From: Escherichia coli
GTDB lineage: Bacteria > Pseudomonadota > Gammaproteobacteria > Enterobacterales > Enterobacteriaceae
Direction: 5' to 3' (one strand)
Assembly (NCBI RefSeq): GCF_003018115.1
Contig: NZ_CP027458.1
DNA: 64,000 bases
Below are positions 58,301 to 61,300 of this stretch, in pieces. Within the stretch, counting starts at the first letter, position 1. Every line of letters begins with the position of its first letter. A program made the position numbers.

Positions 58301-61300
58301 GGTACACCACCAGTAAATACAGCCGTTCACAAACGTCTGCCAGCTTATTTTTACCCATAAAACCAGACCTACGAGTATCCAGAAAAAAATAAACAGGCAG
58401 TAAAGCATGATATTGGCGATCTGGCTGAACATGCGGATACGCATGGACGCAATCTGACCGCCCTGGGTCATATCCTTTGCGTTAAAACTCATGATGATAT
58501 TCCGAAGAAAGAAAGTCAGTCGGACTGATTATTAATGATGAAAAGATTAATAACCGTTAAATTCCGGCTTCGCCGGCAACACTTCACGGTCGCACAAAGA
58601 ATTTGCACAACCGCTCAGTGTTTTCATATTTATTTCGAAAACGCCGGGGAGAAATAAAATTTATTTTATTTCTTTCCGGGGTTGGACAACGAGCAAAGCG
58701 AGGCGTCAGTCAGGAGGCCAGCAGGACTGGCCCGGATAATTTTCTTGACGTCATTAAAGTTAATAAATAAAGATCAGCTATTTACCGTCATAAGCATCCA
58801 TATTTGATCAACACCTGATGAATCTTGATCAACAGCAACTGGCTCAATTGAAAGTGACCATATTTCTTTACCATTGACAATACAGGAAAAATCATCAAAG
58901 AAATAACCTTTATTTACATACTCATCCAGTTTTTCTGTTTGAAATCTATACGCAATCTTTTGTTTTTCAAAGTTCTGATAAGAATCCCTGAATGCTTCAT
59001 ATGCTCCGAAATGAGCATACAATCCCATATCACGAAAGGCTTTAGCAACTTTATAGCCGGATTCAATAAAGGTATCAGAGGTGAATTTCTTAATTCGTCT
59101 CTGCCCTCCACTTATAGCACATAAATTTTCCACATTCACTGATGGTGCCGCTACTTGTTTATCAACAAACAGAGCCGGAGTATATAGGAAATACGTATCA
59201 GAACCGCCAGTACGGGTAATATAGTTATAATTCTCATTATGAATGTTATACATTACCTGGTCGGACAAAAACTCTCTTATATGTTTATTCTTATATTTAT
59301 ATAAAGTTCCTTCAGATACTTGTGTACTTATGCATCCCTGAATGAGGAAACAAATTGATAACATTATGTATTTTCTGATTAACACGACTGCCCCCTTTAT
59401 TCCATAATAGGGATTTTATATGAGACTGGTACAGCTTTATCCAGTCTCATCCTAAATTACAATATATTAGAAATTGATTTGGCCAGCTGGTCTTCGAGAA
59501 CAGGCTTCGCCTCTTCAAATTTCAGGTTAACCTTGTTGGCATTAGATACCACACGGGTCTGGTATTTATGTTGATTTCCGGTTGATGTGCTGGTCTGCAC
59601 TTTTGCACCGGAGGTTCCCTGACGGAGAGCTGCAACATTATCAGTTCTGACTTCAGATGTTGTCCGCTCTGCAATCTGCACATCCGTGATCATGGTGTAG
59701 TTGATATCCTCCACCATTGCATCGGCAGCCATACCAATCAACCCTGTGGCAATCCCGACACCCAGCGCCGCACCGGCAGAGCTGGAGTTATATCCTGTGA
59801 TGCCGGTGCCCAATGCTGCACCGGCAATGGCACCTTCATAACCGCTGTTCAGCCAGGTCTGGGACTCCCGCAAATCCATTTTGTCTGCCTTCAGGATATT
59901 GGCCTGAATCCAGTAGTATGCCTTGTCAGGTGAGCTCACAACCTGGTAGCCTTTGGCTTTAACGGCATCACTGATTTTTGCCTGCAATCCGCTCATATCC
60001 TTGTCAGATGTGTTTTTGATTTGCAGGAAAACGGTGCGTTCACTGGAAGGCTCCAGCCAGATGGTTTCACTCATCTGAGTTTTGACTTCAAGATTACGCT
60101 TCTTGATTGCTGTGCTCATCGCACCACACCCTGAAAGGGCCAGAGTGGAACTGACCAGTGCAACCATCATCAATTTTTTTGTTTTCATCAAATTACCTTT
60201 ATTACAAGCTACAGTTTTCTTATCGCCTATCATCATAGTCCTGCCAACAAGTCCCAAAAGTATTTCCTGCTGAATCAAATCCTCCATGCATAGCTAATCC
60301 TGTTGCCGGATTAGTACGATAAAAATCCACATAATCAAAATTCACATCATCAAAATCCAGATGCAATTCTTCATTGGTGTTTTCATTTACCTGAGATTGC
60401 ATCCATTCTCTTACACTTACACAGCCACAAACTCGCCTTAATTCGTATAGTGTACCAATGATAAAAGTCATCAGGCTTAATAACGGAGAGAATAAGGAAG
60501 ATACTGGCATCAGTATATACCAAACGCCTTTGCTGAATTTAAACTCATCCGACACATGCCGTTTTTTTCGTATTTGAGAAAACAACCATATAAACAATCC
60601 CTGCCATAGTACAATAAAGCACAGGATAAAAACTGTTTCAGCGCTCCCCCAATCAGCCAGATAACAGGCAATGAGCTGTATCACCGTTATCAGAGCAATA
60701 TGAGCTGAATTTTTCATCATCATCTCCCCCATACAATATTATTGCTTGTGCTTATCCTGATACTCCTTTGCTCTTTTCATCAGTTCCTGTGGGCTGTCAG
60801 CACCAGGCATTCTTTCCTGAGCCAACTTTTCTTCATTATATTTATTATCCTGAGACAATACCTCTGTTTTATGGTGATTTTGCAGTTCAGAATACTGCCC
60901 TCTTACAATATTTTCTTCGCTACGTATACTGCTCTGAGTATCCCCGATATTGCCCCGATATTCTGTGACCATATTATCAACCTGCTGCTTCACATCGTTA
61001 CGGATATTACTGTCCTGCGTTCTTTGCTCAATAATACCCTGATGCCCCTGATGGTCTGCAATAATATCCTGGCTGCCACCGCCCGAAGGTACGCTCTCCA
61101 TTCCTTTACCGATATCGCCACGGGATTCACGCCAGGCGCTATCAACACCAGGCTGCACCTGTTCCTGAACAAAAGACCAGGCCATTGCCCGACGACGTTC
61201 TGCAATATCCGGTGAACTGGTGTTTGTCAGAATAGCTTCTGCATCCTGCGGCGCGTGTTTCATCACATACTGTGCAAACTGTTGTGACAGGTCTGCACTC

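What the first reader, a model, noticed from the sequence alone, without database searches (positions are those of the whole stretch)
58624..59456. AT-rich lipoprotein gene inserted between traT and traD of the F transfer operon
In F-type tra operons traT is followed by traD after a short intergenic region. Here a 203-aa lipoprotein gene (58774-59385) of clearly lower GC sits in that gap, after traT's own terminator hairpin (59420-59452) and before a hairpin element (58638-58711) and traD. I recognise no family for it. A gene placed directly after the exclusion genes traS/traT could plausibly act in exclusion, phage defence or envelope interference, but that is speculation.
Basis: partly seen in the sequence, partly recalled or inferred. 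Interest (0 to 1): 0.6.

Follow-up and report, generated by a model that had tools for sequence, protein, structure and literature searches.

The report
Orphan lipoprotein in F-plasmid exclusion cluster
A rare, uncharacterised lipoprotein gene sits just after the exclusion gene traT in this E. coli F-type plasmid, and because its relatives keep turning up inside the exclusion gene cluster, sometimes in place of traS or traT, it is probably a new kind of plasmid-exclusion factor, though no experiment has tested this.

Summary
A 203-aa ORF (58774-59385, minus strand, GTG start, Shine-Dalgarno AAGGGGG) lies between traT and traD. Its GC is 34%, against 49-53% for its neighbours.

It belongs to a 742-bp module (58722-59463) that replaces 30 bp of the "empty" F-type junction. 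Only about 1.7-2% of F-like plasmids carry it: 73-74 of about 4,170 PLSDB plasmids with this junction, and 93 of 5,426 complete E. coli genomes, always on plasmids.

The product is a conserved lipoprotein under purifying selection (dN/dS 0.12-0.25), with no Asp at +2 and two invariant Cys. It has no Pfam, NCBIfam, PADLOC, PHROG or PDB match and no meaningful fold match, and it is not homologous to TraT or Sfx.

Synteny is the main clue to function:
- Relatives lie traS-X-traT in a Salmonella contig.
- They lie traG-X-traT with no traS in Providencia and in pSE11-2-like backbones.
- They lie traS-X with no traT in a Providencia-like backbone.

In the pSE11-2-like backbone, sister plasmids carry TraS in the same slot. 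There the TraG exclusion-specificity region co-varies with the slot gene.

Best reading (about 0.45): an accessory exclusion lipoprotein co-transcribed with traT.

The parts
58774..59385 (-). 203-aa lipoprotein CDS (GTG start, TGA stop); the mature protein starts at Cys18
   Evidence: ORF listing. The lipobox is conserved in the family. dN/dS is 0.12-0.25. PGAP annotates it as a hypothetical protein, WP_249926178.1. The AF2 model has pLDDT 82.6 and pTM 0.80.
59332..59385 (-). Lipoprotein signal peptide MLIRKYIMLSICFLIQG|C, followed by +2 Ile
   Evidence: Pattern match, conserved in 13 homologs; none has Asp at +2. In the N-terminal 45 codons dN is below dS.
59391..59397 (-). Shine-Dalgarno AAGGGGG, 5 nt before the GTG
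   Evidence: Read directly from the sequence. Conserved in other E. coli and Klebsiella copies.
59413..59457 (-). Hairpin just after the traT stop codon; part of the module; no U-tract follows it
   Evidence: Fold -17.5 kcal/mol, z -3.7. Inverted repeat I7. Present in all traT-traD copies, with two compensatory pair changes in Salmonella pHL21A. Absent from the empty site.
58722..59463 (-). 742-bp module: variant last codons of traT, hairpin, SD, lipoprotein gene and about 50 bp of 3' spacer. It replaces 30 bp of the empty junction.
   Evidence: Pairwise alignment with empty-site plasmid pEC31-2 (L007). No flanking transposon-type repeats, only an 11/13 imperfect direct repeat at 58716-58728 and 59481-59493.
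58716..58732 (-). GC hairpin GGCCAG-TCCTG-CTGGCC. This is the structure that directly follows traT in empty-site plasmids; its left arm is remodelled here.
   Evidence: Alignment A1; border analysis.
58640..58683 (-). Conserved AT-rich stem-loop closed by CCGG/CCGG and followed by CGUUUUCG; terminator-like
   Evidence: Fold z -3.1. Inverted repeat I1. Conserved in the empty and type-B junctions.
58564..58622 (-). Very stable conserved hairpin plus a small GC hairpin upstream of traD
   Evidence: Fold -33.8 kcal/mol, z -4.5. Near-invariant in all junction types.
59457..60188 (-). traT (surface exclusion lipoprotein), upstream neighbour and probable co-transcript
   Evidence: PGAP annotation of the identical record. 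This allele is about 83% nt identical to other traT genes.
60220..60723 (-). traS (entry exclusion, inner membrane), also AT-rich
   Evidence: Annotated 'surface exclusion protein'. GC 0.383.
60739..63561 (-). traG, the donor-side partner of TraS in entry exclusion
   Evidence: ORF and annotation. Its specificity region is unchanged between plasmids of this backbone with and without the lipoprotein gene.
56294..58492 (-). traD (coupling protein), downstream neighbour
   Evidence: ORF and annotation.

Best explanation
The gene encodes an accessory exclusion lipoprotein of F-type conjugation systems. It would be a third member of the traS/traT exclusion cluster, from a family not yet described.

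Proposed mechanism:
1. The gene lies between the traT stop codon and the conserved intergenic stem-loops, and no promoter-like site precedes it. It is therefore probably co-transcribed with traT and made constitutively in plasmid-bearing cells (inferred).
2. The precursor is exported, lipid-modified at Cys18 and cleaved. With Ile rather than Asp at +2, it is sent by Lol to the outer membrane (inferred from sequence rules).
3. Its roughly 185-residue alpha/beta domain, probably stabilised by a Cys89-Cys168 disulfide, faces the periplasm or the surface (inferred).
4. When a donor with a cognate F-type transfer system attacks the cell, the lipoprotein engages a donor component and blocks mating-pair stabilisation or DNA entry. 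The most likely target is the variable specificity region of TraG's periplasmic domain, which TraS normally recognises (inferred from synteny and co-variation).

In this plasmid traS and traT are both present, so the gene would add a further exclusion specificity or layer rather than replace one.
For: Real, expressed-looking gene:
- It has a good Shine-Dalgarno sequence and dN/dS of 0.12-0.25.
- The lipobox and two invariant Cys are conserved down to 25-35% identity.
- No sigma-70-like site lies between traT and the gene on the coding strand.

Position in the traT unit:
- The gene lies upstream of the structures that directly follow traT in empty-site plasmids.

Synteny in Enterobacterales. 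The family recurs inside the exclusion cluster in four different arrangements:
- traS-traT-X-traD, as here (85 PLSDB plasmids hold a homolog, and the four checked in E. coli, Salmonella and Klebsiella have this order).
- traS-X-traT (Salmonella L018).
- traG-X-traT with no traS (Providencia L001, L014, L017).
- traG-traS-X-traR with no traT (L024-L026).

Allelic replacement:
- Plasmids pSE11-2 and an E. marmotae plasmid share traG and traT with L017 at about 92% nt identity.
- They carry multi-TM TraS-like proteins exactly where L014 and L017 carry the lipoprotein.

TraG co-variation:
- In these four backbones TraG is 93-98% identical outside the region equivalent to F 610-673.
- Inside that region it is only 64-74% identical between the three slot types, but 96% identical between the two lipoprotein plasmids.
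- That region sets TraS specificity in F and R100 (PMC9797247).

Other support:
- In the Providencia-type backbone the lipoprotein co-diverges with the backbone (76% against 78% for TraD).
- Lipoproteins are established exclusion factors: TraT, TrbK and Sfx (PMC11733297, PMC8923210, PMC11493245).
- Distant members sit next to the integrase of mobilisable islands. Sfx homologs are likewise carried by integrative mobilisable elements.
Against: - There is no experimental evidence, and no homology to any known exclusion protein.
- The fold is an orphan, so structure gives no functional hint.
- The traS-traT-traD interval is a general cargo hotspot. It also holds the 245-aa single-TM protein, DUF2726, traR and a nearby vapBC, so position alone could reflect tolerance to insertion.
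- The TraG co-variation rests on only three slot types and four plasmids. It could be a leftover from a lost TraS partner.
- In this plasmid's own backbone the TraG specificity region is the same with and without the gene, and a 99%-identical copy is found with different traS and traT alleles. No cognate donor target can therefore be named for the copy in the window.
- Some family members are in non-tra contexts: Photobacterium, Shewanella, and one between traM and traJ.
- TraS acts at the inner membrane, whereas this protein is predicted to go to the outer membrane.
Confidence: 0.45

Rival explanations
1. It is generic cargo: an outer-membrane lipoprotein that benefits the host or plasmid in a way unrelated to conjugation, such as serum resistance, envelope stress or adhesion. 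It sits here only because the traS-traT-traD interval tolerates insertions and offers the strong traT promoter.
For: - The interval carries several unrelated accessory genes in other plasmids.
- Distant relatives lie outside tra regions.
- The window plasmid is a STEC virulence plasmid carrying ehxCABD, epeA, iha and YadA-like adhesins.
- The composition is foreign.
- A 99%-identical copy moves independently of the traS and traT alleles.
Against: - In Enterobacterales nearly every copy lies within an F-type tra region, in five different slots, four of them inside the exclusion cluster.
- In two backbones it takes the place of traS, and in one the place of traT, leaving no other candidate. That is costly unless it supplies exclusion.
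- All 94 places found in complete E. coli genomes are on plasmids and none on a chromosome.
Confidence: 0.25
2. It is a donor-side accessory of the F-type transfer apparatus. For example, a lipoprotein that modulates TraG/TraN mating-pair stabilisation, pilus dynamics or recipient range, and so acts in the donor rather than the recipient.
For: - The gene is embedded in the tra operon, and in L014 and L017 it starts 7 bp after traG.
- It co-varies with a TraG segment.
- It is a stable component of the Providencia-type backbone.
Against: - It is absent from about 98% of otherwise functional F-like plasmids.
- Plasmids with the same traS and the same TraG specificity region exist with and without it.
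- It occupies exactly the slots of the genes that act in recipients.
Confidence: 0.12
3. It masks an outer-membrane receptor to block phages or colicins, as the lipoproteins Llp and Cor do or as TraT interferes with OmpA. Any effect on conjugation would be a side effect.
For: - It is predicted to be an outer-membrane lipoprotein.
- Small lipoproteins that mask receptors are an established mechanism (own knowledge).
Against: - There are no hits in PADLOC and no credible hits in PHROGs.
- It was never seen in phage context.
- Its association is with tra regions, not with prophages or defence islands.
Confidence: 0.08
4. It is a decaying or non-functional remnant ORF.
For: - The Salmonella pHL21A copy has C18R plus a stop at codon 28.
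- Several records annotate only 159 aa.
Against: - dN/dS is 0.12-0.25.
- The full-length ORF is intact in the E. coli, Klebsiella, Providencia and metagenomic copies examined, and tblastn covers at least 80% of it in 84 of 85 plasmids.
- The signal peptide is conserved across the family.
- The 159-aa calls are start-site errors.
Confidence: 0.03

Closest known systems
TraT (F-plasmid surface-exclusion outer-membrane lipoprotein, PF05818)
   Same: Both are lipoproteins encoded in the exclusion cluster of F-like tra operons. This gene is adjacent to traT and probably co-transcribed with it. In L024-L026 a homolog occupies the position where traT normally lies.
   Different: There is no sequence relationship (hhalign probability 2.8%; no Pfam hit). 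The predicted fold is a different alpha/beta domain, with no sign of TraT's membrane-inserted helical barrel. It is present in only about 2% of F-like plasmids.
TraS (F-plasmid entry-exclusion inner-membrane protein, PF10624)
   Same: Homologs occupy the traS slot (traG-X-traT) in three backbones. They replace TraS-like genes found in sister plasmids, and each slot type pairs with its own TraG specificity-region allele. Both genes are AT-rich.
   Different: TraS is a polytopic inner-membrane protein with a C-terminal NPATG...GN.FG motif. This protein has only a cleavable lipoprotein signal peptide and a soluble domain, and is predicted to be anchored in the outer membrane. There is no sequence similarity.
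Sfx (IncC/IncA surface-exclusion lipoprotein; Rivard et al. 2024, PMC11493245)
   Same: Both are orphan lipoproteins of MPF-F type elements. Sfx acts in recipients and is expressed constitutively, and its homologs are also carried by integrative mobilisable elements. The distant Dickeya branch of the present family is likewise on mobilisable islands.
   Different: Sfx is 286 aa and lies next to traN and acaB. A profile comparison finds only the signal peptide in common (probability 5%). Sfx specificity maps to TraN, whereas the hint here points to TraG.
TrbK / Eex lipoproteins of IncP, IncN, IncW and pKPC_UVA01-type plasmids
   Same: Both are lipoproteins, and TrbK mediates entry exclusion in recipients.
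   Different: TrbK is 69-151 aa with Asp at +2, which retains it in the inner membrane. This protein is 203 aa with Ile at +2. No Pfam or NCBIfam match links them.

Membership tests
Bacterial lipoproteins (lipobox / signal peptidase II substrates) | N-terminal basic region, hydrophobic core, lipobox [LVI][ASTVIQ][GAS]C with Cys within the first ~35 residues | tested here: met
   MLIRKYIMLSICFLIQG|C matches the PROSITE-type pattern (recalled from memory). The pattern matched 13 of the 14 full-length sequences tested; the Shewanella copy fails only because a Lys falls within the uncharged stretch.
Bacterial lipoproteins (lipobox / signal peptidase II substrates) | Actual lipid modification and membrane localisation | not testable with these tools
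   Needs globomycin or palmitate labelling and cell fractionation. The +2 residue is I, V, S or T and never D, which predicts outer-membrane sorting.
TraT (PF05818) | Sequence or profile homology to TraT | tested here: not met
   No Pfam hit even at E<=10. hhalign of the family profile against the window's TraT gives probability 2.8%, signal peptide only.
TraS (PF10624) | Polytopic inner-membrane protein with homology to TraS | tested here: not met
   No Pfam or NCBIfam hit. There is no hydrophobic segment beyond the signal peptide. It lacks the C-terminal NPATG motif seen in TraS proteins.
TraS (PF10624) | Gene located between traG and traT, with a cognate TraG specificity-region allele | tested here: inconclusive
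   Met for the homologs in L001, L014 and L017. Not met for the copy in the window, which lies after traT and shows no associated TraG change.
Sfx (IncC surface exclusion) | Sequence homology to Sfx94 / SfxRA1 | tested here: not met
   hhalign against the 286-aa pRA1 protein downstream of traN gives probability 5%, signal peptide only.
Exclusion factors in general (functional class) | Expression in the recipient lowers transfer from cognate donors (exclusion index well above 1) | not testable with these tools
   Needs mating assays. Only synteny and co-variation are available.
Known anti-phage defence systems (PADLOC) | Match to a defence-system protein model | tested here: not met
   No families matched the window protein, the Providencia homolog or P0010 at E<=1.
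Transposon or insertion-sequence-borne cargo | Terminal inverted repeats, target-site duplication, or an adjacent transposase or integrase | tested here: not met
   No such repeats flank the 742-bp module, only an 11/13 imperfect direct repeat. No recombinase gene is adjacent.

The most novel reading that the evidence does not exclude
This is a previously unrecognised family of exclusion lipoproteins for F-type (MPF-F) conjugation systems. It can stand in for TraS and recognises the TraG specificity region from an outer-membrane anchor. In plasmids like the one in the window it has been added to a complete traS/traT set, giving a further exclusion specificity. That would let the plasmid shut out a second group of F-like competitors.
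Probability: 0.35. Interest if true: 0.72.

Novelty: new variant of a known kind. Interest (0 to 1): 0.6.

Why it matters
Exclusion decides which conjugative plasmids can enter a cell that already holds one. It therefore shapes the spread of resistance and virulence plasmids. In F-like plasmids exclusion has been attributed to two genes only, traS and traT, and the TraT literature states that traT is consistently found downstream of traS (PMC11733297).

A third, unrelated lipoprotein matters for three reasons:
- It recurs inside this cluster, replaces traS or traT in some lineages, and pairs with its own TraG specificity allele. That would extend the F exclusion paradigm.
- It would give a soluble-domain partner for TraG that is easier to study than polytopic TraS.
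- It could explain otherwise puzzling plasmids that appear to lack traS.

The hypothesis can be tested directly with simple mating assays. If it proves wrong, the result still documents the traT-traD junction as a cargo slot with at least four states, and corrects start-site annotations in public records.

Tried and rejected
Searches that found nothing useful:
- Pfam, NCBIfam, PADLOC and a PDB sequence-profile search gave no hits. PHROGs gave only chance-level hits.
- Foldseek against AFDB50 returned only the family itself and uncharacterised lipoproteins.
- Homology to Sfx and to TraT was tested and rejected.
- Rfam found nothing in the junction.
- Literature searches by protein accession found nothing.
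- blastn of the L009 context against plasmids gave no match, so its host could not be named.

Searches with limited yield:
- The first genome-contig scan failed because the alignment was too diverse. The rerun found only K. pneumoniae ATCC 13883 and Shewanella sairae among 100,044 species representatives.

Ideas tested and dropped:
- Transposon-like ends were not found.
- An own promoter was not found on the coding strand.
- A traS-traT-lipoprotein block moving as one unit was rejected. A 99%-identical lipoprotein gene occurs with traT at 83% and traS at 89% identity, and the same traS allele occurs with and without it.
- TraG co-variation within the window's own backbone was not seen.
- The 159-aa annotated form (start at Met45) was rejected as a start-site error.
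Full report
**1. The observation**

The window matches the IncFIA/FIB/FIC plasmid p_STEC1588_2 of an E. coli STEC strain at 100% over the region studied. On the minus strand the gene order is traG (60739-63561), traS (60220-60723), traT (59457-60188), a 203-aa ORF (58774-59385) and traD (56294-58492).

The ORF starts with GTG, 5 nt after an AAGGGGG Shine-Dalgarno sequence. Its GC is 0.342 (GC3 0.279). That compares with 0.486 for traT, 0.531 for traD and 0.517 for traG; traS is also AT-rich at 0.383.

**2. Is it a real gene?**

Yes, on three grounds:
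- Pairwise dN/dS between copies is 0.12 for close pairs (dS 0.4-0.9) and 0.16-0.26 for distant ones.
- The N-terminal 45 codons, which several gene callers omit by starting at Met45 (159 aa), also have dN below dS.
- Those codons encode a lipoprotein signal peptide that is conserved in every full-length relative down to 25-35% identity.

The lipobox MLSICFLIQG|C fits the PROSITE-type pattern as I recalled it. No family member has Asp at +2, which by the E. coli Lol sorting rule predicts outer-membrane localisation. Two further cysteines (C89, C168) are invariant, consistent with a disulfide in an extracytoplasmic protein. Localisation and the disulfide are inferences.

**3. How common is it, and what are its borders?**

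Of 4,162-4,188 PLSDB plasmids that match the traT/traD flanks, only 73-74 contain the gene. tblastn finds it in 85 of 72,556 plasmids. It is present in 93 of 5,426 complete E. coli genomes, and all 94 places found there are on plasmids.

A spread sample of the ranking shows at least four junction states:
- Empty: a 252-bp intergenic region, as in pEC31-2.
- A different 245-aa single-TM protein inserted just upstream of traD. This is very common, roughly 40% of the sample.
- The lipoprotein gene immediately after traT.
- Both together (CP057155).

Against the empty site, a 742-bp segment (58722-59463) replaces 30 bp. On the left, the border falls in the last few codons of traT (the sequences part at 59463; the final codons AAT ATA TTG TAA here replace AAT ATT CTC TGA of the empty site). 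On the right, it falls in the left arm of the GC hairpin that directly follows traT in empty plasmids.

The 59413-59457 hairpin travels with the module in the E. coli, Klebsiella and Salmonella copies examined, with two compensatory pair changes in the Salmonella copy. It has no U-tract. The gene lies inside the traT transcription unit, upstream of the conserved terminator-like structures at 58716-58732 and 58640-58683 and the large hairpin at 58578-58622. That traT has its own constitutive promoters and terminator in F is my recollection of Jalajakumari et al. 1987, not a tool result.

No promoter-like site precedes the gene on its strand, and no transposon-type ends flank the module. A copy 99% identical occurs in K. 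pneumoniae ATCC 13883 next to a traT only 83% identical and a traS 89% identical. The window's traS allele also occurs without the gene. The module therefore spreads by homologous recombination between tra regions, independently of the traS and traT alleles (inference).

**4. What family is it?**

None that is described:
- Pfam, NCBIfam, PADLOC and a PDB sequence-profile search give nothing, and PHROGs gives only chance-level hits.
- A full HMMER scan of 1.84 billion representative proteins finds only 13 relatives. A profile search of 5.8 billion clusters finds 16, all unnamed.
- One genome per 100,044 species yields only two loci.
- The AlphaFold2 model is confident (pLDDT 82.6, pTM 0.80). 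It shows N-terminal helices packed on a C-terminal antiparallel sheet.
- Profile comparison with TraT and with the IncA Sfx protein aligns only the signal peptides.

**5. Synteny carries the functional information**

In Enterobacterales the family is tied to F-type tra regions and, within them, to the exclusion cluster:

| Arrangement | Where |
|---|---|
| traG-traS-traT-X-traD | window; four other copies checked (E. coli, Salmonella, Klebsiella), among 85 PLSDB plasmids with a homolog |
| traG-traS-X-traT-traD | Salmonella contig L018 (57% identity); the true ORF has an ATG start and a lipobox |
| traG-X-traT, no traS candidate | Providencia p2939_90_3 (53%); two pSE11-2-like contigs L014 and L017 (66%), where X starts 7 bp after traG |
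| traG-traS-like-X-traR-...-traD, no traT | L024-L026 (51%) |
| Between traM and a traJ-like gene, beside a LuxR-type regulator | L009 (32%) |

More distant members (25-35%) lie on other mobile elements:
- A Photobacterium MOBH plasmid.
- A Shewanella contig with a serine recombinase.
- A position next to ccdB.
- A position next to the integrase of a Dickeya chromosomal island that carries a MobA/MobL relaxase.

**6. A sharper test: allelic replacement**

The backbone of L017 has close relatives, about 92% nt identical in traG and traT, in E. coli pSE11-2 and an E. marmotae plasmid. In the very slot where L014 and L017 carry the lipoprotein, these sisters carry polytopic proteins. Those proteins have the C-terminal NPATG...GN.FG motif shared with the window's TraS and with a Pfam-confirmed TraS. 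So the lipoprotein and TraS are alternative occupants of the same locus.

The four TraG proteins are 93-98% identical outside the segment equivalent to F residues 610-673. Inside it they are only 64-74% identical between the three slot types, yet 96% identical between the two lipoprotein plasmids. In F and R100 this segment determines which TraS is recognised (PMC9797247, citing Audette et al. 2007). Fully conserved TraG sequence (columns 721-800) separates the variable segment from the slot. The association is therefore not one contiguous recombination tract.

This is the pattern expected if the lipoprotein is the cognate exclusion partner of that TraG allele. It rests on only four plasmids, however, and could also be a relic of a lost TraS.

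In the Providencia-type backbone the lipoprotein diverges in step with TraD and TraG (76% against about 78%). It is therefore a long-standing component there. That AT-rich lineage is a plausible source of the AT-rich gene seen in E. coli (inference).

**7. Best explanation and its limits**

I commit, at about 0.45, to an accessory exclusion lipoprotein. It would be co-transcribed with traT, lipidated and sent to the outer membrane. It would act in the plasmid-bearing cell when that cell is a recipient, most likely by engaging the incoming TraG periplasmic domain.

- Shown: the gene, its selection, its lipobox, its rarity, its borders, its synteny, the TraS replacement and the TraG co-variation.
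- Inferred: expression, localisation and the exclusion activity itself.

Against the hypothesis:
- The interval is a general cargo hotspot.
- Some relatives are outside tra regions.
- TraS works at the inner membrane.
- In the window's own backbone the TraG specificity region is unchanged by the gene's presence. No target can therefore be named for this copy, which would be an additional layer on top of an intact traS/traT pair.

Rivals, with confidence:
- Unrelated cargo lipoprotein: 0.25.
- Donor-side accessory of the transfer apparatus: 0.12.
- Phage or colicin receptor masking: 0.08.
- Decaying ORF: 0.03, contradicted by the selection analysis.

**8. Comparison with known systems and novelty**

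In function it would resemble TraT, Sfx and TrbK, which are lipoproteins that exclude incoming plasmids. In position and in pairing with TraG it would resemble TraS. It is a member of none of these families: homology was tested and not met in each case where I could test it.

I rate it a new variant of a known kind, meaning a new protein family in the established role of conjugative exclusion. This is conditional on function. Interest is 0.6. A conjugation specialist would be surprised to find F-like plasmids with a lipoprotein in place of traS, and the idea is testable with standard mating assays.

Noticed in passing
L006 2097-2834 (E. coli MS14384 plasmid 2); also L008 2812-3222, L014 7632-8051, L017 8636-9328, L021 4604-5296: A different uncharacterised protein of about 230-245 aa with a single TM helix occupies a second slot just upstream of traD. 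It is present in roughly 40% of a spread sample of IncF plasmids and also in pSE11-2-like backbones. CP057155 carries both this gene (truncated) and the lipoprotein gene. It has no PADLOC hit and only a chance-level PHROG hit.
   Followed up: partly
L003 4133-4612, L004 4133-4612, L008 2098-2577, L018 7001-7480: Public annotations start the lipoprotein gene at Met45 (159 aa) and so lose the signal peptide and lipobox. The full ORFs are intact in L003, L008 and L018. The Salmonella pHL21A copy (L004) really is damaged: C18R plus a stop at codon 28.
   Followed up: yes
window 59457-60188: The traT allele in the window is only about 83% nt identical to the traT genes of the other plasmids examined, with or without the lipoprotein gene. 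Its flanking traS and traD are 96-98% identical to several of them, so the exclusion region is strongly mosaic.
   Followed up: partly
window 56573-56643: A perfect 9-nt tandem repeat (TGGCTGTTG, 7.9 copies) encodes the QQP repeats near the C-terminus of TraD. The otherwise identical record NZ_CP129265.1 annotates a traD that is 81 nt longer, so the repeat number apparently varies.
   Followed up: partly
window 42278-42724 (minus strand): An ORF with a lipobox (…IALTGC) corresponds to the gene annotated 'Exc2 family lipoprotein' in the matching record. It is a second putative exclusion-type lipoprotein on the same plasmid, far from the tra region and next to iha.
   Followed up: no
window about 10600-42000 (record NZ_CP129265.1 3093-34488): The plasmid is a LEE-negative STEC-type virulence plasmid. 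It carries ehxCABD, epeA, iha and two YadA-like adhesin genes. It also has a NirD/YgiW/YdeI-family gene between traX and finO.
   Followed up: no
L024 3079-4244 (also L025, L026): A Providencia-like F-type tra region has traG, a TraS-like protein, the lipoprotein, then traR, a 129-aa protein and traD. There is no traT between traG and traD, so the lipoprotein sits where traT normally lies.
   Followed up: partly
L027/L028 8001-8609 (Dickeya chromosome); L029 7199-7807: A distant branch of the family (25-27% identity) lies directly beside a tyrosine integrase. The apparent integrative mobilisable element also carries a MobA/MobL relaxase, a Shufflon_N (PilV-like) protein and a type I restriction-modification system.
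   Followed up: no
window 58564-58622: A very stable hairpin (-33.8 kcal/mol, z -4.5) and an adjacent small GC hairpin lie upstream of traD. They are nearly invariant across all junction types and have no Rfam match. Their role (processing, attenuation or stabilisation of the traD message) is unknown.
   Followed up: partly
L009 4914-6597: In an unidentified genome (GCA_019219755.1), a LuxR-type regulator (autoinducer-binding plus GerE domains), an 82-aa ORF and a lipoprotein homolog are inserted in the opposite orientation between traM and a PAS-domain traJ-like gene. This suggests a quorum-sensing-linked cargo unit inside the tra regulatory region.
   Followed up: no
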